From positions 132,540-196,539 of the forward strand of contig CAZPKG010000005.1 of assembly GCA_964587105.1 (NCBI GenBank): a stretch of DNA of 64,000 nucleotides. Reading direction: 5' to 3'. Below, in pieces: positions 7,225-43,657 of this stretch; the stretch's first letter is position 1; every line of letters begins with the position of its first letter. Made by a program: the position numbers and the translations under genes. The notes beneath the pieces were generated by a model. The model ran no database searches and was not told where the DNA came from. It worked only from the letters and a program-made list of their open reading frames with translations. This DNA comes from an uncultured Alphaproteobacteria bacterium. Its GTDB lineage: Bacteria > Electryoneota > RPQS01.

Positions 7225-7336
7225 GAGAGCATGCCCTATGTTCTCGAAACTATTCTTGATGCGCTCAAACGTAAATAAGCCGCTTGGGATTTTACCCCCC
7301 TTTACCCCCCCAGAGGACTGGGGGGGAATCAGAATC
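7225..7336 (+). repeat. Partial tandem duplication of the DUF559 3' end, hairpin and repeat
   Basis: 7234-7336 is about 85% identical to 7089-7195. It retains a remnant ORF MPYVLETILDALKRK* (compare MSYVLEQIIEELKR* at the end of DUF559). Confidence 0.6.
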
Positions 7337-9052
7337 GTGCTCTTTCTTATTCTCGCTTCTGCTTCTTTTGCTCAGCCGTTTCCGCCGGACTCGGTTTGGA
7401 CGTTTGCGTTTGACGATGGTGGGGACGAGTATTTTTATGATGCAATAGAAGTTAGTGACGGGTATTTGCTGTGCGGTGAGGCGCGAGAGTGGAATGCGAT
7501 GGCGGGGGAAGCGTTGTTGGTGAAGATTGACCGGGATGGGGAATTGGTTTGGAGCCGGAGGTATGCGGACAATGAGTACTGGAGGTTCAAGCAAATTGAC
7601 TCATCGCAGAACGGTTACTACTTAGCAACTGAAATTACCGCTTCCAGTGGACAACGTAGTCGGATTGCCGTCTATGAGCTTAACTCGCACGGTGACTTGG
7701 GAGCGCAGTTAGAGATTGACGGTGGTGACAGCGCGAATGCAAGCTTAGGCAGCGCATTCTACATGAACTCCAATGAGTGGCGAGTTTCGTATACCTTGTC
7801 AAGCAGCGCGAATGGCAGGCACCTATCTTACAAACGAAGAAGTGGTGCAGGAACAGAAACCAGTTACTTTGATGGGATTCGCATCAACGAAAACAGCGGG
7901 CACTTGTTGATGGGTCCGGACTTTGTGCTTTTTGGAAGCGTGCGGGACTCGGTCAACTCGAACTCAAATGGAGTGCTTCGATCCTCTGGTCAAAACAGCG
8001 AGTTTGGTGGTCCCGAAAATGATGCGATTTTTGGCGCAACCATAGATATTTCGAGTAATCAATTGGTCAGTACAGGTTTCACTGAATTGGATGGAGTAAC
8101 CAGCGACTTGTGGTTGTTTTCTGCCGTCATGTACGACATTGATTCATTGCTTTGGAACAAACATTACGGCGGCCTCGCGTACGAAGACGGCGTAGAAATC
8201 GTTAATGCATCTGACGGCGGATTCATCATTGCAGGGAATTTCTCTTCGGAAGACATTGAGTTTGAGCAATCGGATTATTGGCTGCTTAAAGTTGATGAAA
8301 ATGGGGACAGTGTTTGGTCGGTGGTGAAGGGCGGAGATGAAGCGGATCGGTGTGACGGGATGATTCAGACGGAGAACGGGTTTTTATTGTTTGGCGCATC
8401 GCAATCGTTTGCTGTGCCGGGGTGGGACGGGTGCGCGATGTTTTTGGCTTATGTACCGGATATTGCGGCTCTGCCTGCGAGTTTGAATTTCGGGCCGGTG
8501 GCGGTGGGAGACAGCTCTTCGCACTCGCTGGGGTTGATCAATACCGGATCGAACGTGCTGACGGTGACGGAGATTTCATCGACCGCGAACTATCACGCGA
8601 ATTTCACAGGTCCGGCAACGGTTGAAATTGGCGATACACTGAACGTGCCTGTGGTGTTCACGCCGCAGTCGGTTGGAACTCATGTGGACACACTGCGCAT
8701 TTTGAGTGATGCGGTTTCGGGTGTGAAGAACGTGCGGTGTTTGGGTGCGGGAACGGCGGCGGATGCGGATGACGGAAGTTTGCTGCCGAAAGAGTTTAAG
8801 CTTTATCCTCCCTACCCCAATCCGTTTAATCCTACTACTGTGATTCGGTTTGAATTGCCGAAAGCTCAATTTGTGAAGCTGGAGTTGCTTGACGTGACCG
8901 GAAGATTGGTGCAGAAGATCGTGGATCAGTCTTTTGCGGCGGGAGAGCATCAGATTATGATTGACGGTGCGAGGTTGGCTTCGGGGATTTATTTTGCGGC
9001 CATCAAGGCAGGGGAAAACTATGCGGTGCAAAAACTTCTCTTGGTTAAATAG
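7238..9052 (+). CDS. Secreted beta-propeller/choice-of-anchor-D protein with T9SS C-terminal sorting domain
   Basis: PQQ-like repeats (DGELVWSRRY), a choice-of-anchor-D/ASH-like segment (LNFGPVAVGDSSSHSLGLINTGSNVLTV) and C-terminal YPNPFNPTTVIRFELP...QKLLLVK. The start is uncertain. The ATG at 7238 reads through the duplicated repeat; the alternative GTG at 7337 gives VLFLILASASFAQP. Confidence 0.75.
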   Translation: MFSKLFLMRSNVNKPLGILPPFTPPEDWGGIRIVLFLILASASFAQPFPPDSVWTFAFDDGGDEYFYDAIEVSDGYLLCGEAREWNAMAGEALLVKIDRDGELVWSRRYADNEYWRFKQIDSSQNGYYLATEITASSGQRSRIAVYELNSHGDLGAQLEIDGGDSANASLGSAFYMNSNEWRVSYTLSSSANGRHLSYKRRSGAGTETSYFDGIRINENSGHLLMGPDFVLFGSVRDSVNSNSNGVLRSSGQNSEFGGPENDAIFGATIDISSNQLVSTGFTELDGVTSDLWLFSAVMYDIDSLLWNKHYGGLAYEDGVEIVNASDGGFIIAGNFSSEDIEFEQSDYWLLKVDENGDSVWSVVKGGDEADRCDGMIQTENGFLLFGASQSFAVPGWDGCAMFLAYVPDIAALPASLNFGPVAVGDSSSHSLGLINTGSNVLTVTEISSTANYHANFTGPATVEIGDTLNVPVVFTPQSVGTHVDTLRILSDAVSGVKNVRCLGAGTAADADDGSLLPKEFKLYPPYPNPFNPTTVIRFELPKAQFVKLELLDVTGRLVQKIVDQSFAAGEHQIMIDGARLASGIYFAAIKAGENYAVQKLLLVK

Positions 9053-11099
9053 TCTCGCAGCTTTGTTACTGACAAGCTGTCTGTCATGGGCGCAACCACA
9101 GGTGGATAGTGTGTTTGTGTTTGAGGGGATCGAGGGTGATTACACAATCTCTTTGCCGTTGCCGGGAGGGGATTTTGTTCTGGTGGGATATTCTTACGAG
9201 AACAATCAATCCTTGTCTCGGGTCTCGCGGATGACTCCTGAGCGCGAGATATTGTGGACGCGCTGCATACCAGCAACTTCAGGTTTCAGGAAAGAGATGA
9301 TTGCACTTGATGGGGAATATGTGGTCGGTATTGCACGCGCCCTGTTGCCTGCCGACACCGGATCATTCACGATTGATGATATTGCATTCAAATACTCTCT
9401 GGATGGAGACAGTATTTGGACAAGGAGATTCAGTGATTCAAATTTTGCGGCATTCCTAAACTCGATCATACCTGACGGCAATGGCGGATATTTTGTTTTA
9501 GGAAACGTAACTGTTTCCGCCGGGCCTTCATTCAATCAGCAGATTAATTTATACCGAATGAATGCCGCAGGAAACGTGCTATGGGAGCACAACTATGGGG
9601 GACCAAACCACGATCAAGCTGGAGGAATAGTAAAGCTCGACGGTGATTCGCTGTTGATCGCCACAGTGATGGATTTCGGTTCGAGCAACAACGTCGTTTT
9701 TTTGTGGACAAACCTCAATGGAGACAGCTTGACGAGCCGCACGTATGGTGATTTGGACATGGCCTCGTTCACTCGGCCCGCTTCACTTCATGCGCGCGAC
9801 GGGGGTTGGGAGTTTGTTTGGAAAGACGGAATGAATAGCGGCCCAAGTCTTAATTCGCTGCATTGGCTGCGCACGGAATATGACGGGACACTCATTCGCG
9901 AACTCAATCTTGATGTGCCTGAAAACTCTGTCCAGGGGTTCCAGCAATCGGAAGATGGTTTGAGGACAGTCGGGTACACTCCTTTCGGTGCGCCAATTCG
10001 CAATGCAGTGTTGGGCAGATTAAACGATCTCGGCCAGTGGTACTATTTAGACACGCTTGCGAGCGATGTAATTCAAGAAGGCTACGGGTTCCTTCCGACA
10101 AGCGATGGCACGATTACAATTCTTGGCAGAACTCAAGTCAGCGACACAGTAATCGACGCTTGCCTATTTTATGTCAATGATGGCGGTCATGAGGGCTATT
10201 TGTTCTCGTCACCTCCTGAAGTAGATTTCGGTGTAGTGCCTGTGGATGACGTTGCGGTTCAGAGTGTTTCATTTTTTGTGACGTGGGACTCTGCTACAAC
10301 GATTACGGATATTGAGCTTCCGGAGTTTATTGCAACCACTTTGGCGCCGCCTGTGCAGGTGATACCGGGAGATTCCGCGATTTTTCAATTTGGGTTTCGT
10401 CCGACTGAATTGGTGCGCTATGCGGATTCAATAGTAATACATTCGGATGCTCGGAATGGTTTGCTTACGATTCCGGTGTTCGGTCAGGCTCCATTTCCCG
10501 AATGCACGCCGGCACTACGCGATATCTATTTCACTTGGGCCGAGATAGGCGACAGTATCCGCCGTCCGTTTGCGGTGTTTAACACGGGGACGCTTCCGTT
10601 ACATATTGACCAGATTATTCAACCAGCGCCGTTCTATTTGGACAATACGGGGCCGTTCGTGGTTGAGCCGGACACAAATGCTTTGTTGTGGATTACATTT
10701 CGACCGGACAGCGTTATGCTCTATGAAGTCAATCTTGTGTTTCAGAGCGACGACCCGCAAGGGGCCGATAGCGTATTGCTGAGAGGGCGCGGACTTGAGT
10801 CACAAGAAGATGCTAACGATCCTGTTGAGTTGCCGCGTGAGTTCAAGATGCTTGCGGCTTATCCTAATCCGTTTAATGCAACGGCGGTGATTCGGTTTGA
10901 ATTGCCGAAGACGCAGCTTGTTAAGCTCGAGTTATTTGACATCACAGGTAGGTTGGTCAAGGAAGTTTTGACACAGACTTTCTCTGCGGGTGAACATCAG
11001 ATAATGATTGAGGGTGTGGGGTTGGCGTCGGGGATATATTTTGCGAACATGAATGCGGGAGAGTTTCGTGCGGTGCAGAAATTGGTGTTGCTGAAATGA
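9021..11099 (+). CDS. Secreted protein with T9SS C-terminal sorting domain
   Basis: Signal peptide MRCKNFSWLNSLAALLLTSCLSWAQ and C-terminal YPNPFNATAVIRFELP...QKLVLLK. It overlaps the upstream gene by 32 nt; the six-frame ORF starts at 8961. Confidence 0.75.
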   Translation: MRCKNFSWLNSLAALLLTSCLSWAQPQVDSVFVFEGIEGDYTISLPLPGGDFVLVGYSYENNQSLSRVSRMTPEREILWTRCIPATSGFRKEMIALDGEYVVGIARALLPADTGSFTIDDIAFKYSLDGDSIWTRRFSDSNFAAFLNSIIPDGNGGYFVLGNVTVSAGPSFNQQINLYRMNAAGNVLWEHNYGGPNHDQAGGIVKLDGDSLLIATVMDFGSSNNVVFLWTNLNGDSLTSRTYGDLDMASFTRPASLHARDGGWEFVWKDGMNSGPSLNSLHWLRTEYDGTLIRELNLDVPENSVQGFQQSEDGLRTVGYTPFGAPIRNAVLGRLNDLGQWYYLDTLASDVIQEGYGFLPTSDGTITILGRTQVSDTVIDACLFYVNDGGHEGYLFSSPPEVDFGVVPVDDVAVQSVSFFVTWDSATTITDIELPEFIATTLAPPVQVIPGDSAIFQFGFRPTELVRYADSIVIHSDARNGLLTIPVFGQAPFPECTPALRDIYFTWAEIGDSIRRPFAVFNTGTLPLHIDQIIQPAPFYLDNTGPFVVEPDTNALLWITFRPDSVMLYEVNLVFQSDDPQGADSVLLRGRGLESQEDANDPVELPREFKMLAAYPNPFNATAVIRFELPKTQLVKLELFDITGRLVKEVLTQTFSAGEHQIMIEGVGLASGIYFANMNAGEFRAVQKLVLLK

Positions 11100-11632
11100 G
11101 GCAATGGATTGCCATTATTGTGGCTGCGCTCGTGCTTGTGGCCTGTGAAGAGGGGGACAAGCCGCAGGATGGAACGGGCTATGACATCGTGGTTGGTGAT
11201 ACACTGATTTCGATTTCGGCTGAAGCTGTGCGGTTTGCAGCAGAGCATTTTGAATGGCACGCTTATATGCTGCGCGAATTTCAGATTGCGACGCTGCCGC
11301 GAGATGAAGGAAGTCCCTATTCGGGTTCGCTCGAGCAGTGGAAGAATTTGTCGTGGAGTTCGCGGCAGACATTTTTGTATCCGCCGTTTGTGCATAATTT
11401 GAGTACGGAATCGCTGGAACTCTATTACTATTTGATCGGGACGTATCCGGATCAGTTTGGGTTTGGGTGGGTGGATACATACGATCCCGAAGCGAATTTG
11501 TTTAACAGCGCTGTGAGGCCGTGGCTGCATCCGGCGGATTCGACGCTGACGCCCGACAATCCGGGCACGCTCGAATTTGACGGCGGTTTGGGAGATATGC
11601 TGGAATATCGTGGGATGTGGGGGATGGAATGA
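11096..11632 (+). CDS. Hypothetical lipoprotein
   Basis: Signal peptide plus lipobox (LVLVAC). Shares ATGA overlap with the upstream gene. No recognisable domain. Confidence 0.55.
   Translation: MRQWIAIIVAALVLVACEEGDKPQDGTGYDIVVGDTLISISAEAVRFAAEHFEWHAYMLREFQIATLPRDEGSPYSGSLEQWKNLSWSSRQTFLYPPFVHNLSTESLELYYYLIGTYPDQFGFGWVDTYDPEANLFNSAVRPWLHPADSTLTPDNPGTLEFDGGLGDMLEYRGMWGME
11543..11626 (+). repeat. 84-bp direct repeat copy 1 (3' end of lipoprotein gene)
   Basis: Near-identical to 12913-12996 (ACGCTGACGCCCGACAATCCGGGCACGCTCGAATTTGACGGCGGTTTGGGAGATATGCTGGAATATCG...). Confidence 0.7.
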
Positions 11633-11674
11633 AGAAACTTTCTGATTGCAATTTCGCAACAAGAGGAACTTAAA

Positions 11675-12781
11675 TTGTCGCAACGTCTAATTACAAATTT
11701 AAATCACCTTAAGAGTATTTCGGAGCAGCTGGATACGCTTTTTGGCACTCTTGAATTAGAGGATTTGTCGAAAAAAGTTACTCTCGTTGAGGACTTCGTG
11801 TACTTTCACCTTCCTCACGTGCACATTCTGAATACTCTCGTTTCAAACGGCGCTAAGGCATCGGACGATTTCAGCTTTTTTGGCTTTAACGGCATTACCT
11901 TCGAGCTAAGCTGTCATGAGTCAACAACAGAGCGCAGCATTTTGGAAGTTACCATCTTACCTAAACTGACAAAGAATGAGAAAAAAGCAATAGGTAAACC
12001 GGTACTGACAAGATTGCAACTTCATGACTCATACGGACGATTCGAAGAGGTTCGGATTATTGCGTCACCACTGTTATCTTATGTCGCTAGCCAGTTAGCG
12101 GAATTAGTTTGTGAAGTCATCCGCGAAGCGGAAACCTGGCTTGCAAAGCACTTGCATTTTCTTGCGCGTAGAATGACAACAAAGTTTGCAACGGAGTTTT
12201 ACACAGAGCTAAGACACCTACTAGTAACGAATCTGAAAAGTGATACCATAGCAGATTATGTATTCCTCGTGATGGTTGACAAGAACAGAGGAACATATGC
12301 CTTGGACTCTCATGCAGTTGATGCTTTTCTGGAAAGGTCTTCGAATAGCCAAGAGGACATGAGGATATCCCCGTATGCGGCATTGGCTGAGATATTCTCT
12401 CAAGAGATTCCATTTGATCAAATGCACTCTCGTTTTGCGATCAAAAGCAACAAGTGCATTTTCATTGATCTCGACCTTTCTGACTATTATATGAAAGCTA
12501 ATCAATTGGTGCATGCACAGCACGACTTTATAGGTTCAAAAGATACTTGTGTTTATCCGCTTTGTAGATCAGGTCAAACCTTCTTGCTACTTGCATATCC
12601 GCAGAGTATCTCGTCTCAGCTTAACCCGTTACTTGACCAATATAAGGATGAGCTTACAAAGATATATTTGAGCCATGCAGGATTGGTCAAGAGGATTGCA
12701 AGAAAGACATGGGCAGTAGTTAAGAGTCCGGACTTCGCAAAATGGCTCCGAGCCTTTACGCTCCCCGATGAACCAGCATAA
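11675..12781 (+). CDS. Hypothetical protein encoded in a low-GC insertion
   Basis: 368-aa ORF. It is markedly AT-rich compared with its neighbours. No transmembrane segment and no recognisable motif. Bounded by the 84-bp direct repeats. Confidence 0.6.
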   Translation: MSQRLITNLNHLKSISEQLDTLFGTLELEDLSKKVTLVEDFVYFHLPHVHILNTLVSNGAKASDDFSFFGFNGITFELSCHESTTERSILEVTILPKLTKNEKKAIGKPVLTRLQLHDSYGRFEEVRIIASPLLSYVASQLAELVCEVIREAETWLAKHLHFLARRMTTKFATEFYTELRHLLVTNLKSDTIADYVFLVMVDKNRGTYALDSHAVDAFLERSSNSQEDMRISPYAALAEIFSQEIPFDQMHSRFAIKSNKCIFIDLDLSDYYMKANQLVHAQHDFIGSKDTCVYPLCRSGQTFLLLAYPQSISSQLNPLLDQYKDELTKIYLSHAGLVKRIARKTWAVVKSPDFAKWLRAFTLPDEPA

Positions 12782-12794
12782 GTTGCCTATCCCC

Positions 12795-12917
12795 ATGCCT
12801 CTAATCACTCAAAAATACGATGGAAAAACGCTTGCTACGCCTGCGGATAATTTGTTGGTAGTGCGGGTGAAGTGCGGGATGCAGGTGGTGGTGTCGGCTT
12901 TGACGGAACTACGTTGA
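12795..12917 (+). pseudogene. Aspartokinase 5' fragment (remnant duplicate of the lysC N-terminus)
   Basis: MPLITQKYDGKTLATPADNLLVVRVKCGMQVVVSALTELR* aligns with the N-terminus of the intact gene at 14347 (MSLVIQKYGGKTLATPADILQVAGLVHARVKSGTQVVVVVSALADT). The nucleotide sequences align too. Confidence 0.6.
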
Positions 12918-12996
12918 CTCCGGACAATCCGGGCACGCTCGAATTTGACGGCGGTTTGGGAGATATGCTGGAGTATCGGGGGATGTGGGGGATTAA
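12913..12996 (+). repeat. 84-bp direct repeat copy 2
   Basis: Duplicate of 11543-11626, immediately upstream of the LVIVD/T9SS gene. Confidence 0.7.
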
Positions 12997-13083
12997 TTAG
13001 TGGATGACGACTTCGTCATAATTAAGAGATATATTAGTTTGCATTTATTTTGCAGCGCTTCAATCAGCCGAAAGGATTCCATT

Positions 13084-14343
13084 ATGTGTCGGCAGCTTTT
13101 TGCAGCAACTTTGAGCATTATACTCATGACAACAGTTGTTAGCTTTGGTCAGAACGTGGCGCCACTTGGATTTACCATTTTAAGGGATCATTCTTACGAT
13201 GTTGAGGTGAGCGGGTCGAACGCTTTTCTGGCTCACGAAACACGCGGACTGATGATACTTGACGTCAGCAATCCATCGAGTATTGAAGAGTTGGACTCGC
13301 TATTGTTTACCGATACCCCACGAGATGTGGTAATATCAGATACGCTTGCATACGTCACGGCAGATGACGGAATACACGTTGTTGACATATCGGATTTGAG
13401 AGATTTGGTAGAGGTTGGTTTCACCTCCTTAGAAATGGGTTACGGCTGCGAATCTGTGTTATACGGGCCATACTTGATTACAGGCGGATCAGGCCACCTG
13501 TTTGCTCTTGACATCAATGATCCGTTAACACCAGTTGTCGTAGGGACATTAGGGTTTGAAGATATGATAAGCATCGGCGGCATTGCAATTTGGGATCACT
13601 ACGCTGTAATTGCCCTTTCTGCATTCTTCGGCGGCATTGAGATTGTGGATCTTTCAGATCCAACAAATCCGCAATCCGTTGGACACGCTGATACAGATGA
13701 CTGGGCACACAGTGTGACCGTATTTGGCAATCATGCTGCATTGGCCGTTGACTATGCGGGTGTTCAAATCTTTGACATTAGCTTGCCCACGTCTCCGCAA
13801 CTCGAATCCACAATCGTAATGGAAGATGCAATTACAAATAGTATTGCATCGGCCGGGAATTTCGTATATGCGGCCGGACAGGATGAGAGGTTACACATAT
13901 TTAATCTTGACAATCCGTCAAATCCAATTTCCGTTGGAACGAGCCCTTACGATCTTGGGGGAACAGAGATCTTCGTATCCGCATCTGGAGAGATCATGTA
14001 CACAGCTGACGGTGTTAGATTTGAAATCTTTGACTGTTCTGCCGCGCTCCCCGTCGATGACGAGCCTACGCCATATTTGCCTGCTGATATCTCACTACTT
14101 GCATATCCCAATCCCTTCAATCCGACGACGACATTGACATTTTCAGTTGCGCATGAAGCCGAAGTGAGATTAATCGTGTTTGATGTTAACGGGCGATTGG
14201 TGAGCGAAGTGGTGCGCGGAAAGTTTACGGCAGGGACGCATGCAGTGAATTGGTCGTGCTCTGAGTGCACATCAGGGATTTACTTTGCAGCGATGAACGC
14301 CGGATCGTTTACGGCTTCGCAGAAACTACTTTTGTTAAAATAA
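13084..14343 (+). CDS. LVIVD-repeat beta-propeller protein with T9SS C-terminal sorting domain
   Basis: Repeated LxILDVSNP / IHVVDISD / IEIVDLSDPTNP / VQIFDISLPTSP / LHIFNLDNPSNP units (LVIVD repeats). Signal peptide MCRQLFAATLSIILMTTVVSFGQ. C-terminal YPNPFNPTTTLTFSV...QKLLLLK. Confidence 0.7.
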   Translation: MCRQLFAATLSIILMTTVVSFGQNVAPLGFTILRDHSYDVEVSGSNAFLAHETRGLMILDVSNPSSIEELDSLLFTDTPRDVVISDTLAYVTADDGIHVVDISDLRDLVEVGFTSLEMGYGCESVLYGPYLITGGSGHLFALDINDPLTPVVVGTLGFEDMISIGGIAIWDHYAVIALSAFFGGIEIVDLSDPTNPQSVGHADTDDWAHSVTVFGNHAALAVDYAGVQIFDISLPTSPQLESTIVMEDAITNSIASAGNFVYAAGQDERLHIFNLDNPSNPISVGTSPYDLGGTEIFVSASGEIMYTADGVRFEIFDCSAALPVDDEPTPYLPADISLLAYPNPFNPTTTLTFSVAHEAEVRLIVFDVNGRLVSEVVRGKFTAGTHAVNWSCSECTSGIYFAAMNAGSFTASQKLLLLK

Positions 14344-14346
14344 CTG

Positions 14347-15513
14347 ATGTCTCTGGTAATCCAAAAATACGGTGGAAAGACGCTTGCTACGCCTGCGGAT
14401 ATATTGCAGGTGGCGGGGCTGGTGCATGCGCGGGTGAAGAGCGGGACGCAGGTGGTGGTGGTGGTATCGGCTTTGGCGGATACGACGGACCAGTATGTGG
14501 CGATGGCGCGGGCGGTGAATCCTGAACCGCGAGGGCGGGAATTGGACGTGCTGCTTTCGACGGGCGAGCGGGTGGCGATAGCGATGCTGGCGCTGGCGCT
14601 GAACTCGATTGAGCCGGACATCGCGGTCTCGCTGACGGGCGCTCAGGCCGGAATCATCACGGACACACTGCACACGGCGGCGCGGATTGTTGAAGTCCGG
14701 CCTCTGCGGGTGCGGGAGGCGCTTGAACAGGGGAAAATCCCGGTGATTGCGGGCTATCAGGGGATTACGACCGAGAAGAACATCTCGACATTGGGCCGCG
14801 GCGGGACAGACGCTACGGCGGTGGCGCTGGCCGTGGCGCTGGGGGCCGAGTGTGTCGAGTTTATGAAAGACGTGGACGGCGTGGCGAGCGCGGACCCGAA
14901 GGTCGTGACATCGGCCAAGATACTGCCCGCTCTGGACTATGACGAGGCCCTGTCCATGATGGGGTTTGGCGCCAAGATTTTGCAGGTTCCGGCGGTGGAA
15001 ATGGCGGCGGAATTCGGGATGAAGCTGGCCATTGGGAACTCCAAGACGGGGGTCGCCGGGACGATAATCACAGAGAAGCCTCTGGCCAAACGGACGTTAG
15101 GCGCTGTTATTCATACCCCTGCGACAATTTTACCGCTTGCAAGTCTGCCTGAGTTTTCGTTTGTTGAACGGACTCTGCGCGAAACGGGGGTACTTCCGCT
15201 GTACCTGCGCGGCGGCCAAAACCCCGTGGTGGTTTTCAAGCAGAGCGATGAGCCGCAGCTGTTGTTCAAGCAATTTGCCCCGGCAATGGTGTCGGGCTAT
15301 GATTTGGTGGCGCTGTTTGGCCCGGGTACGGGCGGCGTAGGCTCGCTTGCAGACCGGATTTCGGCCTTGCTTTCCCCATGTCGGGACGCGATTCGGGAAG
15401 AGTTCCATCTGGAAAACCGATTGCTTTTGTTGGTCGAGCGGTCGCGCGCAACTGAGCTTGTGCGCGGACTTCATGCCTTGTGCGATTCAGGGATCGTGGC
15501 AACGGCTTCTTGA
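14347..15513 (+). CDS. lysC: Aspartate kinase
   Basis: Amino-acid-kinase fold with KYGGKTLA, VVVVSALADTTD, LLSTGERV and GRGGTDATAVALAVALGA. The C-terminal regulatory region is divergent. Confidence 0.8.
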   Translation: MSLVIQKYGGKTLATPADILQVAGLVHARVKSGTQVVVVVSALADTTDQYVAMARAVNPEPRGRELDVLLSTGERVAIAMLALALNSIEPDIAVSLTGAQAGIITDTLHTAARIVEVRPLRVREALEQGKIPVIAGYQGITTEKNISTLGRGGTDATAVALAVALGAECVEFMKDVDGVASADPKVVTSAKILPALDYDEALSMMGFGAKILQVPAVEMAAEFGMKLAIGNSKTGVAGTIITEKPLAKRTLGAVIHTPATILPLASLPEFSFVERTLRETGVLPLYLRGGQNPVVVFKQSDEPQLLFKQFAPAMVSGYDLVALFGPGTGGVGSLADRISALLSPCRDAIREEFHLENRLLLLVERSRATELVRGLHALCDSGIVATAS

Positions 15514-21333: not shown

Positions 21334-22494
21334 TTGACTCCGCATACGCTCTCATTGCCGAACGTGATGTCGGCCGATGAAGTTCAACCTCATCGGCCGA
21401 CTTTTGCGCGCATCTATCGAGATGCGATTGCGGGGAATTTCAAACGGTTTCGCGAGCTTGCTCCGCAATCGCAATTGATGGCCGTGGTGAAAGCAGATGC
21501 TTATGGACACGGCCTGCTGCATTGCGCAAAACTGTTCAGCGAGTTAGGCACGGACAGTTTCGGAGTTGGTTTTGTCGAAGAGGGGATCGTCCTCAGACGA
21601 GCCGGGATTCGCGAGCCGATTCTTGTACTGGGCGGAATTGTCGGCTCGCAGATTGAATTGTTTCTCGAATACGATTTGGATTTGACGGCAAGCTCGCTAT
21701 TTAAACTTGAAGCGATTGAACGCGCGGCACAGGCAGCAGGTAAAGTCGCGAGGGTGCAACTCAAGATTGACACGGGAATGAACCGGATCGGGCAGAATTT
21801 TCGCACGGCGGAGAGTCTGCTCCGCGCGGCAAAAAATTCCAAGCATGTGCTGGTAACAGGAATCTATTCGCATTTGGCGACGGCGGAAGAGGTCGATCAG
21901 AGCTTCGCCCGCTTGCAGATATCACGGTTTGCAGAGATTCGCGAACTTGCCGACAGCATTGGATTCAGAGATGTAGTTTATCATCTTGCCAACTCTGCCG
22001 GAGCGATTCGCTTTGCCGATGCGCGGCTTGATTTGATTCGGCCGGGACTTGGCCTCTATGGCCAACACGCCGCAAGCGCATTGCAATCGGAATTCCCGCT
22101 CCTCCCTGCTCATCAGTTGGTGAGCGAAATTGTGTATGTGAAGGGTGTACGCAAGGGTGAGGGAGTCAGCTATAATTTGCGCTGGACGGCTCCGGAGAAT
22201 GTTTGGGTTGCGACCATTCCAGTGGGATACGGCGACGGATATCCGCGTTTGCTCTCGAACAAAGCAAATGTGTTGATTGGCGGAAAGAGATATCCTATTG
22301 TCGGAACGGTGTGCATGGATCAATTCATGGTGAATCTGGGACATGACAAACGCGCCGTCGGCGACGAAGTTGTGTTGTGGGGGAAACAGGGTGAAGACGA
22401 GATTTCGCTTTGGGAGTTGTGCGAGGCGGCAGGGTTTATTCCCTATGAACTGCCAATTTATTTGACGGGAAGAGTGCCGAGGCTGTTTGTATGA
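21334..22494 (+). CDS. alr: Alanine racemase
   Basis: PLP-lysine motif AVVKADAYGHG. C-terminal half has Alr signatures (..YGDGYPR.., ..GTVCMDQ..). The start may instead be at 21367. Confidence 0.85.
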   Translation: MTPHTLSLPNVMSADEVQPHRPTFARIYRDAIAGNFKRFRELAPQSQLMAVVKADAYGHGLLHCAKLFSELGTDSFGVGFVEEGIVLRRAGIREPILVLGGIVGSQIELFLEYDLDLTASSLFKLEAIERAAQAAGKVARVQLKIDTGMNRIGQNFRTAESLLRAAKNSKHVLVTGIYSHLATAEEVDQSFARLQISRFAEIRELADSIGFRDVVYHLANSAGAIRFADARLDLIRPGLGLYGQHAASALQSEFPLLPAHQLVSEIVYVKGVRKGEGVSYNLRWTAPENVWVATIPVGYGDGYPRLLSNKANVLIGGKRYPIVGTVCMDQFMVNLGHDKRAVGDEVVLWGKQGEDEISLWELCEAAGFIPYELPIYLTGRVPRLFV

Positions 22495-23915
22495 AGGAAA
22501 CAAAAGGCAAAAGTTACTTGGGGGACTTTTGGTTTCCAAGCAAGCCAGAACGCAAAGTACGTGGAAAGCTTATTATAGACGATTCCAATAAGTCTTCGCT
22601 TCAAACTGATGGTGCGCTTGAGGGTAACACATCAGATGATATCAATTCCTTTCCTCGAAGTCCAAAGCCAGACCTTGTAATTTGGGGTGAATTGGATGCG
22701 GGGGGAGTGGTCACCCTTTTTGACGTAATCCATTCCAGTGGGCATACATCTCCTTTTCGATGGGAAAGATACCAAGCAACTTACAACTCGCCTTTATGCG
22801 TCATGGGCGGACACTTCTCCCTCAAATCCGATTTGAAAGTAAGGGTGTTAAAACTATACTTCACAAATTTACGCGAATGGATTTGTTTCAGCCCTTTTGA
22901 TTATTCAATTCACAAGAAAGGTGAAGATATTGTTAAGATAAAGCATTGGCACGAGGAACAGTTTCGTATTTCTACGTCAATAGATTTTTGTATACAGTGT
23001 GGAATATCTCAAACGGCTGGGCCACTTGAGTTTCGGGCAGAAATCTTAGCTTGGGTTGCGTTAGTGTCAACTGACTCGCTAACACTCGATGAATGGTCAC
23101 CACACGTAAATTCATTCCAAAGGTTATTAATTTTTGCCTCCTCAAAACGTTCTATCGTTGAAAAGCTGCATGCATTCCCAATCACGCAAAATGAAGACGA
23201 ATTGAACATATTCATGCAAGTATCATTGCGCAATGTTGAAAAGCTTACGTCGAGGGAATTTCTATTTAGCTGGGATGACATCCTGTCAGATCGTAGGGGA
23301 GAGTTTCTGTCTAAGTGGTTCACACTTAATACTGATTTTGAGCAAGTGGTAAGTCTTTATATATCGAGCATAATTTGGAAGGATTCAAGCCAGTATCATG
23401 TTTTTCAGGTGTTAGTTCAGGCAATTGAGGCTTTTCACCGCGGCAAGTTTGATAGGCCACGCGTACCCAAAGGAGAGTTTAGAGTTTTGTGTGATGAAGT
23501 ACGCAAAACCATCAGTCAAGTAAAGGATGATGAGTGGAAAAGTAGATTTGCAACCGCAGTTTCAAACACTAACACACTTTCTTTGAGGGAGCGGATTGAA
23601 GAATTGCTTAATAAATATTCAATCGGAGCATCTGCTCTAATTGATAATAATGATAAGTTTGCAATGTTAATTTCAAAAACTCGAAATTTCCTTGCGCATA
23701 GAGGTGATGATCAAGATTTTGTGATCCATGAACGTGATATTTTTTGGTTCAATGAAGCAATGCGACACTTGCTTCAAATTGCTATCTTAGTTGAACTTGG
23801 TTATGTTGAAACGGATGCTGTTTCAATGATTCGTGAACATTCATTGAATCACAATCTGAAAAAATCACTCCGGTTGACTTCAGAAAAATACTTTCCCGAT
23901 GATCCGCCTTGCTAA
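22491..23915 (+). CDS. ApeA-like HEPN-domain protein (putative abortive-infection/defence nuclease), low-GC island
   Basis: 474 aa. N-terminus GDFWFPSKPERKVRGKLIID resembles ApeA N-terminal domains. C-terminal Rx4H HEPN motif (TRNFLAH). About 43% GC against about 58% in the flanks. Overlaps both neighbours. Confidence 0.5.
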   Translation: MKETKGKSYLGDFWFPSKPERKVRGKLIIDDSNKSSLQTDGALEGNTSDDINSFPRSPKPDLVIWGELDAGGVVTLFDVIHSSGHTSPFRWERYQATYNSPLCVMGGHFSLKSDLKVRVLKLYFTNLREWICFSPFDYSIHKKGEDIVKIKHWHEEQFRISTSIDFCIQCGISQTAGPLEFRAEILAWVALVSTDSLTLDEWSPHVNSFQRLLIFASSKRSIVEKLHAFPITQNEDELNIFMQVSLRNVEKLTSREFLFSWDDILSDRRGEFLSKWFTLNTDFEQVVSLYISSIIWKDSSQYHVFQVLVQAIEAFHRGKFDRPRVPKGEFRVLCDEVRKTISQVKDDEWKSRFATAVSNTNTLSLRERIEELLNKYSIGASALIDNNDKFAMLISKTRNFLAHRGDDQDFVIHERDIFWFNEAMRHLLQIAILVELGYVETDAVSMIREHSLNHNLKKSLRLTSEKYFPDDPPC

Positions 23916-40603: not shown

Positions 40604-41983
40604 TTGGGAGGGCCGTTCATGTCACTTGCCGTAAATTTCGGCTTTGCTTATTCCAAGAAGCTTGCCGGCCACGGAATTTCCAATGAGATGCTGAAGCCCG
40701 CGCTCGAACGCACGGCTAAGGCTTTGGATCATATTCGCACCGAACGAGGAGCCAACAAACTCCCCTATTTGGACTTGCCTGAAGATGGCAAGACCAAGGC
40801 CGCCTGCAAAGAGCTTGCGGATAGATTCGCAGGTTATGAGAATTTCCTGCTTTCAGGCATCGGTGGCAGTTCGCTTGGGCCATTGGCGATTTTCAATGCG
40901 CTCGGTCACCCGCTGCACAATATGCTCTCCGGAGCCAAGCGCAAGAATCATCCACGATTTTTCGCGCTCGACAATGTCGATCCCGTGCAAGCGGACGCGC
41001 TGTTCAATTTCTGCAAGCCGGAAAAAACGGTTTACAATATCATCTCCAAGAGCGGCGCAACGGCTGAAACGGCTGCGGCGTCGCTGATCATTTTTGATCT
41101 GCTGAAGAAGCGGATGGGCAATGATTGGAAGAAGAATATCGTCTGCACGACGGATCCGACGAGCGGCGATTTGCGCAAGCTCTGCAACGATGAAAAATTT
41201 CAGACGCTGCCGCTGCATCCGGGAGTCGGCGGACGCTTTTCGGTTCTGACTCCGGTGGGCCTATTCCCATCCTATTGCTTGGGCTTTGACGTGGATGCGA
41301 TGCTTGCCGGTGCGGCGGAAATGCGCGAGCGTTGTTTGGATAGCGACGTACAAAAAAATCCCGCCGCGCAGATGGCCGCCTTGCTCTATCTGTTCGACAG
41401 CACGCAGCACAAGAAGATGCACGTGATGATGGCCTACGCGAATGGACTTTACGGCATGGCCGATTGGTTCAGGCAGTTGTGGGCCGAATCGCTTGGTAAA
41501 GAGGCCGATAACGAAGGCCGTATCGTGAACGTCGGCCCGACTCCGCTGAAAGCTCTCGGCGCGACCGACCAGCATTCGCAAGTTCAACTCTACATCGAAG
41601 GCCCCTACGACAAGGTGTTCCTGTTCCTCGAATGCAAGAAATTCGGTAAGCGCATGAAACTCCCCGAACTTTATGACAACGTTTCTTCGTTGAACTATCT
41701 TGGCGGGCAAACGATGAACAAACTCATCGCCGCCGAATTTGCCGCGACGCGCGAAGCTCTCGCTCAGCGCGGACGTCCTTCGATTTCCATCACTTTCCCC
41801 GAAGTTGACGCACATGCCGTCGGTGAATTTTTCATGCTATGGGAAATCACGACATCCATCGCAGGCGCGCTCTACCGCATCAACCCCTACGACCAGCCCG
41901 GCGTCGAATTAGGCAAGCAGTTGACCTACGGCTTGATGGGCAGAGCGGGTTTTGAAGACAAGGCCAAAGGGATTAAGGTGTAA
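40604..41983 (+). CDS. pgi: Glucose-6-phosphate isomerase (short bacterial/archaeal PGI type)
   Basis: Two SIS domains: GIGGSSLGP, GGRFSVLTPVG. Confidence 0.85.
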   Translation: MGGPFMSLAVNFGFAYSKKLAGHGISNEMLKPALERTAKALDHIRTERGANKLPYLDLPEDGKTKAACKELADRFAGYENFLLSGIGGSSLGPLAIFNALGHPLHNMLSGAKRKNHPRFFALDNVDPVQADALFNFCKPEKTVYNIISKSGATAETAAASLIIFDLLKKRMGNDWKKNIVCTTDPTSGDLRKLCNDEKFQTLPLHPGVGGRFSVLTPVGLFPSYCLGFDVDAMLAGAAEMRERCLDSDVQKNPAAQMAALLYLFDSTQHKKMHVMMAYANGLYGMADWFRQLWAESLGKEADNEGRIVNVGPTPLKALGATDQHSQVQLYIEGPYDKVFLFLECKKFGKRMKLPELYDNVSSLNYLGGQTMNKLIAAEFAATREALAQRGRPSISITFPEVDAHAVGEFFMLWEITTSIAGALYRINPYDQPGVELGKQLTYGLMGRAGFEDKAKGIKV

Positions 41984-41984
41984 T

Positions 41985-43187
41985 ATGAAGCTATCCGTAC
42001 AAAACTTCCGCTCGATCAAGGACGAGACATTTGATCTTGCCCCCATCACGGTCTTCTATGGACCGAACGGCTCAGGCAAATCAACAGTTTTGTACTCGCT
42101 TCTGACGTTCAAGAATATTGTTTTGAATCCGAATCAAAGGGTGGAGGCATTTTTTGACTACGGGTTCTTGAATTTAGGTGATTTTCGCGATGTAGTCTTT
42201 AATCATGACAGAAGATCGAAAATCCGTCTCAAGTTATTAGAACCTGAGAACAACCCAAAAGCATTCTACGAGATATCATTCAGCGGTGAGACTGCTCAAG
42301 CAGAAATATCGTTTGATTATCCTCTATTTGACAAACCTATTGGTGCCAAAACAGACATATACTTCCCATACAGGTTGACTCAGCAGGTTTTCGTAGAAAC
42401 TAAGTTCCGTGACGGTGACGCAATAACGCTATATTGGAACGGTATTACGTTTACAGGATCGGCGATGCGTACAGATATTGCAGACGTACATGCAGATAAG
42501 ATTCGCGAGGCTGGGTCTTTTGCTCAAACAGAGCTCAACCATGTTGGAATTGTGCCACTGAAACGGGGTTTCACGCGACCTTTTTATTCACCTCTTCCAA
42601 TTTCTACATCACAGACTACCGAGGAAGATATTGCAACGTTTCTTGCTATTGAAAGATACTTCGACGGGAAGCTAAGTGGCTATTTAGAAGAAATCGCAAA
42701 GAGAGAATTTCGAGTCAATTCAGCGGGGGGAACTGGTGTTTACTCATTTGATCTTATTGATCGAGCTTCACGAGTTCCATGCAACATAGTAAATGATGGA
42801 TTTGGAATAAATCAATTAGTTCACTTGCTTGCGATATGCCTGCAAGATAGGCATTCGTTTGTTTGTATTGAGGAACCAGAAATCCATCTTCACCCTTCCG
42901 CAGTTCGCGCACTTGCTCAAGCCTTTATTAAGATGACAAAGGAAGAGGGAAAGCGCTTTGTCATTGCGACACATAGCGAAGTATTTATCTCGACGTTGCT
43001 TGCTGAAGTTGCAAGGGGCAACCTTAAGGCTGACGATTTGAGTTGTTATCTGACAACAAAGGAAGGCAAGGAATCCAAGTTCGAAAAGCAGGAAGTGAAC
43101 GAGAAGGGGCAGATTTCAGGAGGGTTGCAAGCCTTTGCTCAAGCTGAGCTTGAAAACACGAAAATCTTGCTTGGATTGTCTGACTAA
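41985..43187 (+). CDS. ABC-type AAA ATPase of the OLD/PtuA/AriA class (AAA_15/21-like)
   Basis: N-terminus MKLSVQNFRSIK...ITVFYGPNGSGKSTVL (Walker A). C-terminal D-loop/H-loop CIEEPEIHLHPS and ATHSEVFI. No fused nuclease domain. Lies in a low-GC segment. Confidence 0.7.
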   Translation: MKLSVQNFRSIKDETFDLAPITVFYGPNGSGKSTVLYSLLTFKNIVLNPNQRVEAFFDYGFLNLGDFRDVVFNHDRRSKIRLKLLEPENNPKAFYEISFSGETAQAEISFDYPLFDKPIGAKTDIYFPYRLTQQVFVETKFRDGDAITLYWNGITFTGSAMRTDIADVHADKIREAGSFAQTELNHVGIVPLKRGFTRPFYSPLPISTSQTTEEDIATFLAIERYFDGKLSGYLEEIAKREFRVNSAGGTGVYSFDLIDRASRVPCNIVNDGFGINQLVHLLAICLQDRHSFVCIEEPEIHLHPSAVRALAQAFIKMTKEEGKRFVIATHSEVFISTLLAEVARGNLKADDLSCYLTTKEGKESKFEKQEVNEKGQISGGLQAFAQAELENTKILLGLSD

Positions 43188-43198
43188 TTATCCGATTT

Positions 43199-43657
43199 AT
43201 GCGGATTGTCATCAATGAATGGTTGATCGAAGACGCTCTGGGAAACAACGGAGAACATCGACAAGCCTTGTCACTCTTAGTGTTCGAACAGTTTACAGTT
43301 CGCGAAGATTTGTTGATTGTGCTTGAAAAAAGCAAATGGACATGGAAGGCGCTTCAGTTGTGGAAGCTCCAAAATCAAGGAGCGCGCAGGGTATCAAAAC
43401 TCTTCATGGGTTCAGTTTGGGAAGATCCCGCAAACTGCGAGAGGATTCCAAGAGACGAACGTTTTGCTTTGCCGGAGTCTCTAAGCCATGTGGATGACGA
43501 CGACCGCTATCTTATCGAAGCATATTTGAACGGGAATGCCGAACTACTTGTGACGACGGACAAGCAACTAATCGAATTCTGCAAAAGATCTGAGAATCCT
43601 CGAGTAGTTGCTATCCACCGCGACGACTTCCTCCGCTCATGGAACATCGCACCCTAA
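43199..43657 (+). CDS. Small protein with PIN-like motifs; candidate nuclease partner of the ATPase
   Basis: 152 aa with RIVINEWLIEDA at the N-terminus (Asn where the first PIN Asp is expected), then HVDDDDRYLIEAYL and LLVTTDKQL. No detectable homology beyond this pattern. Confidence 0.4.
   Translation: MRIVINEWLIEDALGNNGEHRQALSLLVFEQFTVREDLLIVLEKSKWTWKALQLWKLQNQGARRVSKLFMGSVWEDPANCERIPRDERFALPESLSHVDDDDRYLIEAYLNGNAELLVTTDKQLIEFCKRSENPRVVAIHRDDFLRSWNIAP

What the first reader, a model, noticed from the sequence alone, without database searches (positions are those of the whole stretch)
11543..13083. Orphan low-GC gene and a lysC 5' pseudogene fragment trapped between 84-bp direct repeats; remnant of a duplicated lipoprotein-cargo-lysC junction with cassette replacement
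Seen in sequence: the last 84 nt of the lipoprotein gene (11543-11626) reappear almost identically at 12913-12996, immediately upstream of the LVIVD/T9SS gene. Between them lie the AT-rich 368-aa ORF (11675-12781) and a 41-codon degraded copy of the lysC 5' end (12795-12917) that aligns with the intact lysC start at 14347. The simplest history is a tandem duplication of the unit [lipoprotein 3' end - cargo gene - lysC 5' end] in which the first cargo copy was replaced by a foreign low-GC gene. The 84-bp repeats would allow excision or further shuffling by homologous recombination.
Basis: seen in the sequence. Interest (0 to 1): 0.6.

Follow-up and report, generated by a model that had tools for sequence, protein, structure and literature searches.

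The report
Foreign gene insertion scar beside lysC
A 1.4-kb block carrying one foreign gene of unknown function was recombined into the end of a lipoprotein gene in an uncultured bacterium, leaving an 83-base duplication and a dead piece of the lysC gene as a scar, at a site where related genomes hold other accessory genes, including a restriction-modification system.

Summary
An 83-nt direct repeat (11543-11625 / 12911-12993, 94%) brackets an intact low-GC 368-aa ORF (11675-12781) and a decayed lysC 5' fragment (12795-12907). An independent Logan contig matches 11575-12952 exactly and spans the lysC'::lipoprotein junction. The closest relative found (L031) has lipoprotein-LVIVD-lysC with no insert, so the window equals that haplotype plus 1368 bp. 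Both breakpoints lie in a 12/13-nt microhomology (GGCGGATWCGACG; 2 of 5000 shuffles reach it). The fragment carries lysC allele states (MPLI...) and copy 1 carries a gene tail (WGME*) that occur in other haplotypes. This favours import of a pre-existing [lipoprotein 3' end-ORF368-lysC 5' end] block through one homologous and one illegitimate junction, rather than in-situ duplication followed by cargo replacement. The lipoprotein|lysC slot varies across about 20 related loci: empty, T9SS cargo genes, unknown genes, or a BglII-type R-M pair. ORF368 is not a true orphan. It belongs to an unnamed family (190 cluster representatives, 20-27% identity) with a confident two-lobed, weakly GAF-like model. 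A few relatives are fused to TIR, DUF4062, nucleoside-phosphorylase or SARP domains. A defence-related sensor role is plausible but unproven. The mechanism is known, so interest is moderate.

The parts
11096..11632 (+). Conserved 178-aa lipoprotein gene (lipobox Cys17). In relatives it lies just upstream of the variable slot and lysC. Its last 9 nt are 'tail A' (ATGGAATGA, WGME*).
   Evidence: ORF list. 20 homologues at 37-95% identity. Synteny in relatives.
11533..11545 (+). Microhomology patch GGCGGATTCGACG at the lipoprotein breakpoint.
   Evidence: 12/13 match to lysC 14475-14487. 2 of 5000 shuffles reach this.
11543..11625 (+). Direct repeat copy 1 (83 nt), part of the functional lipoprotein gene.
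11675..12781 (+). ORF368: intact, low-GC, cytoplasmic protein of an unnamed family. The model has two alpha/beta lobes with long helical linkers and resembles GAF domains only weakly.
   Evidence: GC. No Pfam, PADLOC, PHROGs or NCBIfam hit. 190 remote relatives. AF2 model with pLDDT 90.4, pTM 0.86. Foldseek GAF-type hits at E 0.02-0.1. Domain fusions in relatives.
12795..12907 (+). lysC' pseudogene: a decayed 5' fragment of an aspartokinase gene of the MPLI allele type. The frame stops at 12915-12917.
12908..12910 (.). Illegitimate junction (ACT) between lysC' and lipoprotein copy 2, inside the shared GGCGGA...ACG patch.
   Evidence: Sequence. Microhomology test. Spanned by the Logan contig.
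12911..13000 (+). Direct repeat copy 2 (83 nt) plus 'tail B' (ATTAATTAG, WGIN*): a detached lipoprotein 3' end.
   Evidence: Tail and downstream spacer match L031 (spacer 76/83).
13084..14343 (+). LVIVD-repeat protein with a T9SS C-terminal sorting domain. The CTD starts at about 14104, which is where homology with L002, L003 and L033 resumes.
   Evidence: Pfam LVIVD 7e-27 and Por_Secre_tail at residues 341-415. blastn boundaries at 14100-14104.
14347..15513 (+). Intact lysC (aspartokinase), MSLV allele. Holds the microhomology patch GGCGGATACGACG at 14475-14487.
   Evidence: AA_kinase 4.8e-41..

Best explanation
The region is the scar of a recombinational gene gain at a variable slot between a conserved lipoprotein gene and lysC. 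The ancestral local haplotype was lipoprotein(...WGIN*)-LVIVD/T9SS gene-lysC, as still seen in the closest relative. A 1368-bp block was inserted into the lipoprotein 3' end. The block came from a different haplotype of the same lineage, in which ORF368 sat directly between lipoprotein(...WGME*) and an MPLI-type lysC. One side of the insertion is a homologous exchange within the 83 nt now present twice. The other side is an illegitimate join of lysC (about +134 in resident coordinates) to lipoprotein (-87) inside a 13-nt microhomology. The join may have been made beforehand in the donor, as a tandem-duplication junction or an excised circle that later entered by Campbell-type single crossover. 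Alternatively it was made at integration by homology-facilitated illegitimate recombination. No recombinase is involved. The 83-nt repeats (49 nt identical) should allow RecA-dependent loss of ORF368 plus lysC', restoring the L031 arrangement. ORF368 is most likely an accessory, conflict-related cytoplasmic protein: a two-lobed sensor-type module that lacks an effector domain of its own. Shown: the structure, the uninserted comparator, the microhomology, the allele mosaic and the slot variability. Inferred: the order of events, the excision, and ORF368's function.
For: Uninserted haplotype: L031 1-598 matches window 11028-11625 (93.6%) and L031 516-2736 matches 12911-15131 (91.8%). Four-fold-site divergence from L031 is the same on both flanks (lipoprotein 0.169, LVIVD 0.185, lysC 0.184). 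Microhomology is 12/13 at both breakpoints, reached by 2 of 5000 shuffles. Of the 19 lysC' differences, 9 are allele states shared with other genomes. The other 10 are seen in no relative, and 9 of them fall at codon positions 1 or 2, as expected for decay. Tail A and tail B each occur separately in other genomes. lysC' has 10/113 such changes against 1/90 in copy 2 (Fisher p=0.025), so the fragment looks older than copy 2. The scar is unique among 14 loci probed. Slot contents in relatives are empty (L004-6, L041/42), T9SS cargo (L002, L003, L033-35), non-T9SS genes (L024, L032), or an N6_N4 methylase plus BglII endonuclease (L039). For ORF368: the other two lowest-GC islands of the window are defence genes, ApeA and an NsnB-like ATPase. 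Family members are fused to TIR_2, DUF4062 or PNP_UDP_1. Some lie next to HsdR, CHAT-TPR and a serine recombinase, or next to an integrase, HNH, IS and PIN genes. DUF4062 is reported as a TIR-like NADase defence effector joined to variable sensor regions (bioRxiv 10.64898/2026.05.01.722283 and 10.64898/2026.06.25.731849). Single crossover of a circular molecule leaving 109-950-bp duplications of the homology is documented in E. coli (PMC3240628).
Against: The donor haplotype (lipoprotein-ORF368-lysC) was not found in any collection. Both repeat copies share states (GAA/E, GGT, CTG) that L031 and L002 lack. This needs either a very close donor or later gene conversion. With copy 2 counted at 3 such changes, the decay contrast is not significant (p=0.15). 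L031 could in principle be a secondary loss. For ORF368 there is no hit in PADLOC, Pfam, NCBIfam, PHROGs or PDB sequences. Fold matches are weak (TM 0.2-0.5). Most family members are stand-alone with no conserved partner, and several sit among housekeeping genes. No catalytic motif is evident.
Confidence: 0.6

Rival explanations
1. In-situ tandem duplication of [lipoprotein 3' end-LVIVD-lysC 5' end] through the same microhomology, followed by replacement of the first LVIVD copy by ORF368 through homologous exchange with a lipoprotein-ORF368-lysC donor.
For: The junction order and the microhomology are what a tandem duplication gives. The two repeat copies resemble each other (76/81) more than either resembles any relative. 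The middle of lysC' (nt 16-55) is identical to the resident allele.
Against: It needs two events plus the same unsampled donor. Non-resident states reach position 70 of the 113-nt fragment, which leaves 43 nt or less of decayed homology for the right-hand crossover. The unequal decay of lysC' and copy 2 also fits poorly. No relative carries a duplicated LVIVD.
Confidence: 0.2
2. Mirror image: the resident haplotype was lipoprotein(WGME)-ORF368-lysC(MPLI). An incoming L031-like fragment [lipoprotein 3'-LVIVD-lysC...] joined illegitimately on its left and homologously on its right. This truncated the old lysC and supplied a new one.
For: It yields the same architecture. It also explains why lysC' is of a different allele type from the intact lysC.
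Against: The lipoprotein body and the LVIVD-lysC flank are equally distant from L031 at four-fold sites (0.169 vs 0.185), and both flanks are about 86-87% identical to L002. This argues that both flanks share one history with the LVIVD haplotype.
Confidence: 0.08
3. Assembly artefact or strain chimera in the MAG.
For: The source is a metagenome assembly. Repeats of 83 nt can mislead assemblers. No read data could be examined.
Against: An independent de Bruijn contig reproduces 11575-12952 exactly, including the junction. The copies differ at 5 positions. No shared k-mer could join lysC +134 to lipoprotein -87 by error.
Confidence: 0.03
4. ORF368 is the cargo of a site-specific mobile element (IS, transposon, integron cassette or integrase island), and the repeats are its attachment sites or a target duplication.
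For: The insert is flanked by direct repeats and carries foreign cargo. Some family members lie next to recombinases elsewhere.
Against: There is no recombinase or transposase ORF and no terminal inverted repeat between 11.5 and 13.1 kb. The repeat is coding sequence of the target gene and is far longer than a target-site duplication. The insert carries a piece of the neighbouring chromosomal gene. Other slot occupants differ and show no common ends.
Confidence: 0.03

Closest known systems
Campbell-type single-crossover integration of a circular DNA carrying a short chromosomal homology (documented in E. coli conjugation experiments, PMC3240628)
   Same: The insert is flanked by direct repeats equal to the homology carried by the incoming molecule (109-950 bp there, 83 bp here). 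No site-specific recombinase is needed. The insertion can be reversed by recombination between the repeats.
   Different: Here the case is natural and in an uncultured lineage. The circle or junction would have been closed by a 13-nt microhomology between two chromosomal genes. The event is inferred, not observed.
Homology-facilitated illegitimate recombination (de Vries & Wackernagel 2002, Prudhomme et al. 2002 and Meier & Wackernagel 2003, as cited in PMC5361080 and PMC3240628)
   Same: One homologous anchor plus one illegitimate, microhomology-associated joint brings in foreign DNA.
   Different: Classic HFIR usually deletes recipient DNA between anchor and joint, whereas here a recipient segment is duplicated. 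Natural competence of this organism is unknown.
Orphan arrays at T6SS effector-immunity and Rhs/CDI loci (PMC5361080)
   Same: Incoming modules displace rather than replace resident ones. They leave detached gene ends and a mosaic of alleles at a slot bounded by conserved sequence.
   Different: No toxin-immunity logic is evident here. The displaced pieces are a lipoprotein 3' end and a lysC 5' end. Only one displacement is seen.
Chromosomal hotspots of gene transfer and core defence hotspots flanked by conserved core genes (PMC5635113, PMC10250203)
   Same: One intergenic slot between conserved genes holds different accessory genes in different genomes, including an R-M system. Some occupants have no mobility genes.
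   Different: The slot is very small (0-3.4 kb). Many occupants are T9SS surface proteins rather than defence genes. The lineage is uncultured.
GAF/PAS-like small-molecule sensor domains and the auxiliary sensor regions of DUF4062 (Swarozyc, Evangelion) and TIR defence proteins (bioRxiv 10.64898/2026.05.01.722283, 10.64898/2026.06.25.731849)
   Same: ORF368's model gives weak GAF-type fold matches. In a few relatives the ORF368-like region takes the place of a sensor region next to TIR, DUF4062 or PNP effector domains.
   Different: There is no sequence match to GAF or to any solved structure. ORF368 itself has no effector domain, and neither ligand nor trigger is known.

Membership tests
Recombinational insertion with one homologous and one illegitimate junction (Campbell-type single crossover or HFIR) | Insert absent from the same site in a close relative | tested here: met
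   L031 has lipoprotein-83-nt spacer-LVIVD-lysC, and its nt 516-598 match both repeat copies.
Recombinational insertion with one homologous and one illegitimate junction (Campbell-type single crossover or HFIR) | Direct duplication of target sequence flanking the insert | tested here: met
   83 nt at 94% identity with a 49-nt identical core.
Recombinational insertion with one homologous and one illegitimate junction (Campbell-type single crossover or HFIR) | Illegitimate joint at a microhomology | tested here: met
   GGCGGATACGACG vs GGCGGATTCGACG at both breakpoints, reached by 2 of 5000 shuffles.
Recombinational insertion with one homologous and one illegitimate junction (Campbell-type single crossover or HFIR) | Incoming DNA derived from a different genome or haplotype | tested here: met
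   ORF368 GC3 is 0.43 against 0.52-0.71 in neighbours. lysC' carries MPLI-type allele states. Tail A vs tail B. The donor itself was not found.
Recombinational insertion with one homologous and one illegitimate junction (Campbell-type single crossover or HFIR) | DNA uptake or transfer route and RecA dependence | not testable with these tools
Simple tandem duplication | Head-to-tail junction (end of unit joined to start of unit) | tested here: met
   lysC 5' end is followed by lipoprotein 3' end at 12907-12911.
Simple tandem duplication | Both copies contain the same internal sequence | tested here: not met
   ORF368 and the LVIVD gene are unrelated. Only 83 nt and about 113 nt are shared.
Simple tandem duplication | Duplicate segments equally diverged from their partners | tested here: inconclusive
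   94% identity for the lipoprotein repeat against 83% plus two deletions for lysC'. Changes seen in no relative are 1-3/90 against 10/113, giving p=0.025 to 0.15.
Site-specific mobile element (IS, transposon, integron cassette, integrative island) | Recombinase or transposase gene, or attC / terminal inverted repeats | tested here: not met
   No such ORF and no relevant inverted repeat in 11.0-14.4 kb.
Aspartokinase (lysC) for 12795-12917 | Full AA_kinase domain with the N-terminal K-x-G-G motif | tested here: not met
   Only 40 codons remain, with KYDG in place of KYGG and 5- and 2-codon deletions. It is a pseudogene fragment.
GAF domain proteins (for ORF368) | Significant match to a GAF profile or a GAF fold | tested here: inconclusive
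Known anti-phage defence families (PADLOC-DB v2) | Profile match | tested here: not met
   0 of 61 family members match.
Accessory-gene or defence hotspot between core genes | Same flanking genes with different cargo across genomes, including recognised defence systems | tested here: met
   Slot contents across about 20 loci. L039 holds N6_N4_Mtase (1.7e-54) and Endonuc-BglII (1.3e-18).

The most novel reading that the evidence does not exclude
ORF368 founds an undescribed family of single-gene, GAF-like sensing proteins of bacterial conflict or anti-phage systems. The same module would be reused as the sensor region next to TIR, DUF4062/NIR and nucleoside-phosphorylase effectors. In addition, the repeat-flanked [ORF368-lysC'] block would be a recombinase-free cassette that moves in and out of the lipoprotein 3' end within the population by homologous recombination alone.
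Probability: 0.25. Interest if true: 0.65.

Novelty: new member of a known kind. Interest (0 to 1): 0.4.

Why it matters
This is an unusually legible natural record of how a bacterium without obvious mobile-element machinery gains a foreign gene. The uninserted comparator, both junctions, the microhomology and the allele mosaic can all be read directly. It also marks a very small chromosomal slot between a lipoprotein gene and lysC as a turnover site. In this uncultured FCB-type lineage the slot holds both surface (T9SS) proteins and defence genes. Finally, it flags an unnamed protein family with a confident predicted fold and effector-domain fusions as a candidate for functional testing.

Tried and rejected
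These ORF368 searches found nothing:
- Pfam, PADLOC and PHROGs.
- Pfam, NCBIfam and PADLOC on 61 family members.
- PDB sequence profile search.
- tblastn of ORF368 and three relatives against plasmids and phages.
- IMG/VR scan.

Other ORF368 work with limited return:
- The word-indexed protein search found only ORF368 itself. The profile version was limited by its candidate cap.
- The single-sequence AF2 model was useless (pLDDT 41).
- Foldseek against PDB and BFVD gave only weak GAF-type matches.
- The family alignment was too divergent for a degenerate-pattern scan.

Searches on the scar and region that came back negative:
- The junction 28-mer is absent from JGI metagenomes.
- The hybrid lipoprotein expected from the excised or uninserted form (window sequence ending WGIN) is not in the protein collection as an exact sequence.
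- There is no Rfam family, and so no lysine riboswitch, in 10.5-15 kb.
- Promoter-like and terminator-like sites do not exceed shuffles.
- No flanking repeats surround the window's other two low-GC islands.

Two ideas were dropped:
- I first read the all-synonymous repeat differences as proof of a foreign allele. Polarising against relatives shows two of the five are private to the functional copy 1, where only synonymous changes would survive.
- I tried to place the crossover point inside the repeat. This is not resolvable, because the resident sequence is not identical to L031.
Full report
**1. What is in the sequence**

All genes in 7.2-18 kb lie on the + strand:
- Two T9SS-tailed Ig-like proteins (7238-9052, 8961-11099).
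- A 178-aa lipoprotein (11096-11632).
- ORF368 (11675-12781).
- A 40-codon lysC-like ORF (12795-12917).
- A detached lipoprotein 3' end (12911-13000).
- An LVIVD-repeat protein with a T9SS sorting domain (13084-14343).
- lysC (14347-15513), then a SpoIID/SPOR protein and an EamA transporter.

The repeat finder returns the 83-nt direct repeat 11543-11625 / 12911-12993 at 94%. It also returns the lysC 5' similarity (12795-12907 vs 14347-14480) in three collinear pieces. The repeat is 83 nt rather than 84.

**2. Is it real?**

A Logan contig from run SRR14271333 (L001, 1378 nt) is identical to window 11575-12952. It starts and ends inside the 49-nt stretch where the two repeat copies are identical, which is where a k=31 graph must branch. 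It contains copy-1-specific bases on the left, copy-2-specific bases on the right, and the lysC'::lipoprotein junction. The copies differ at five positions, and no shared k-mer could create that junction. Mis-assembly is therefore unlikely. The reads are probably the same ones used for the MAG, so read-level confirmation is still outstanding.

**3. Comparative anatomy of the slot**

The lipoprotein is a conserved family in uncultured 'Calditrichaeota/bacterium' MAGs. I recovered about 20 related loci from genomes, metagenomes and Logan assemblies. The order T9SS genes-lipoprotein-[slot]-lysC-spoIID(-eamA) holds in the loci long enough to show it. The slot content varies:

| Loci | Slot content |
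|---|---|
| L004, L005, L006, L041/42 | empty (about 4-50 bp) |
| L003, L033/34/35 | one T9SS gene |
| L002 | two T9SS genes |
| L031 | the LVIVD gene alone |
| L032 | two unknown non-T9SS genes |
| L024 | a gene whose N-terminus ends in ...VPIFQR (by my recollection reminiscent of DUF262; no Pfam hit) |
| L039 | type II R-M pair: N6_N4_Mtase 1.7e-54, Endonuc-BglII 1.3e-18 |

In T9SS-type haplotypes, nucleotide homology with the window resumes at 14100-14104. Pfam places the start of the sorting domain there, at residue 341.

**4. The uninserted comparator**

L031 (Logan, run SRR33452767) is the closest relative at this locus. Its nt 1-598 match window 11028-11625 (93.6%), and its nt 516-2736 match 12911-15131 (91.8%). 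Its single lipoprotein 3' end therefore corresponds to both repeat copies, and it has no ORF368 and no lysC'. The window equals an L031-type haplotype plus 1368 bp. Four-fold-site divergence from L031 is uniform across the lipoprotein gene (0.169), LVIVD (0.185) and lysC (0.184). Both flanks therefore share one history with the LVIVD haplotype. None of 14 loci probed has a second lipoprotein-3' or lysC-5' copy.

**5. The junctions**

The resident lysC has GGCGGATACGACG at 14475-14487, and the lipoprotein gene has GGCGGATTCGACG at 11533-11545. These 12/13-identical patches sit exactly at the two breakpoints, and only 2 of 5000 shuffles of the surrounding 40 nt reach such a match. The right junction is therefore a microhomology-mediated illegitimate join. 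The left junction is homologous, lying within the 83 nt.

**6. Where did the inserted block come from?**

- *lysC' fragment.* It differs from the resident lysC at 19 of 113 aligned positions and by two deletions. Nine of the differences are states found in other genomes' lysC. These include S2P and V4I (MPLI..., as in L032, L003, L005, L006) and position 70, where the window's own lysC and L031 differ from the fragment. The other ten occur in no relative, and nine of those ten fall at codon positions 1 or 2. They hit conserved residues (KYGG to KYDG), which is the pattern of decay.
- *Gene tails.* Copy 1 ends ATGGAATGA (WGME*), as in L024. Copy 2 ends ATTAATTAG (WGIN*), as in L031, L002, L003 and L033, and is followed by a spacer matching L031 at 76 of 83 positions.
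- *Proximity.* ORF368 lies 42 nt after tail A and 13 nt before the lysC' start codon.

The simplest source is a haplotype lipoprotein(WGME)-ORF368-lysC(MPLI). That is a non-T9SS slot type like L032 or L039.

**7. One step or two?**

Donor-type states run to position 70 of the 113-nt fragment, so 43 nt or less of now-decayed homology remain for that crossover. The fragment has 10/113 changes seen in no relative, against 1-3/90 for copy 2 (p=0.025-0.15). Two neutral fragments born together should look alike.

A block whose lysC'::lipoprotein junction already existed explains both points. Such a junction could be a donor tandem-duplication junction or an excised circle. The block would later have entered by homologous exchange within the lipoprotein 3' end. 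The three differences crowded into the first 12 nt of copy 2 also fit this route.

Single crossover of circular molecules leaving 109-950-bp duplications, and HFIR, are both documented (PMC3240628; PMC5361080). I cannot separate these sub-variants. Both repeat copies share GAA/GGT/CTG states that L031 and L002 lack, which needs a close donor or later gene conversion. I give about 0.6 to import with one homologous and one illegitimate junction, and about 0.2 to in-situ duplication plus replacement.

**8. ORF368**

It is intact and full-length for its family, with no signal peptide evident on inspection. Its GC is 0.425 (1.7th percentile). The only other comparably low-GC islands in the 64 kb are two defence-type islands:
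- An ApeA-type HEPN gene at 22491-23915.
- An NsnB-like AAA_21 ATPase with a small partner at 41952-43657.

The word-indexed search found only ORF368 itself. Exhaustive HMMER found 190 cluster representatives at E<=1e-3, with 20-27% identity and mostly 355-385 aa. The 20 representatives looked up sit in 90%-identity clusters of one or two sequences, and those that carry a name are called 'hypothetical', apart from two fusion proteins named for their added domain. No member gives a credible match in Pfam, NCBIfam or PADLOC, and none matches PDB sequences.

With the family alignment, AlphaFold gives pLDDT 90.4 and pTM 0.86. The model has two N-terminal helices, an alpha/beta lobe, a long helical hairpin, a second alpha/beta lobe and C-terminal helices. 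Foldseek finds only weak GAF or LuxR-LBD-type matches (E 0.02-0.1).

Longer relatives carry extra domains:
- PNP_UDP_1 (P0040).
- DUF4062 (P0152).
- TIR_2 (P0126).
- Trans_reg_C plus BTAD (P0144).

DUF4062 was recently reported as a TIR-like NADase defence effector attached to variable sensor regions. Neighbourhoods are mixed:
- P0022 lies next to HsdR, CHAT-TPR and a serine recombinase.
- P0040 lies among an integrase, HNH, IS and PIN genes.
- Others are solitary genes between housekeeping genes, with no conserved partner.

My reading is that ORF368 is an accessory, conflict-related sensor-type protein without its own effector. This is an inference from location, composition, fusions and some contexts, at roughly even odds.

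**9. Verdict**

The mechanism belongs to known kinds: a transfer hotspot, and single-crossover or HFIR integration. It is a clean natural example in an uncultured lineage, and it points to an unnamed protein family worth testing.

Noticed in passing
window 22491-23915 (+): A 474-aa low-GC gene (the lowest-GC 1.1-kb windows of the 64 kb) sits between alanine racemase and an acetyltransferase. It matches ApeA_NTD1 (3e-29), HEPN_Apea (1e-18) and PADLOC PDC-S58 (3e-46). It overlaps both neighbours by a few bases and has no flanking repeats.
   Followed up: partly
window 41952-43657 (+): A third low-GC island. It holds a 411-aa AAA_21/AAA_15 ATPase (best PADLOC match NsnB, 3e-40) and a 152-aa partner with no family match, directly after the gene at 40604-41983. 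It looks like a two-gene defence module.
   Followed up: partly
window 14100-14343; L002 11702-, L003 10020-, L033 9248-: Homology between the window and relatives with different T9SS cargo genes resumes exactly at the start of the T9SS C-terminal sorting domain. The passenger part of the last cargo gene is swapped while its CTD and lysC are kept. The CTD may serve as a recombination arm for passenger exchange.
   Followed up: partly
L039 2966-4442: In a JGI metagenome relative, the lipoprotein|lysC slot holds a type II R-M pair (N6_N4 methylase plus BglII-family endonuclease) that abuts an MPLII-type lysC.
   Followed up: yes
L032 8552-10098; L024 2337-2552: Other non-T9SS slot occupants. L032 has a 224-aa protein and a 291-aa TM/coiled-coil protein with only weak SMC-like matches. 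L024 has a gene start ending ...DIVVPIFQR, reminiscent of DUF262 by my recollection only, and it is cut by the contig end.
   Followed up: partly
L007 8040-9214; L044 3014-4054: More distant relatives carry two tandem paralogues of the lipoprotein gene.
   Followed up: no
window 12911-13000: The detached lipoprotein 3' end has stayed almost undecayed, with an in-frame stop and only 1-3 changes not seen in relatives. The adjacent lysC fragment is heavily decayed. Possible causes are gene conversion from copy 1, younger age, or some constraint such as upstream signals for the LVIVD gene. This is unexplained.
   Followed up: partly
window 13084-14103: The LVIVD passenger region also has low GC (gene GC3 0.45, against 0.52-0.71 in neighbours). 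It is shared only with L031 among the relatives examined, so it too may be a fairly recent acquisition.
   Followed up: no
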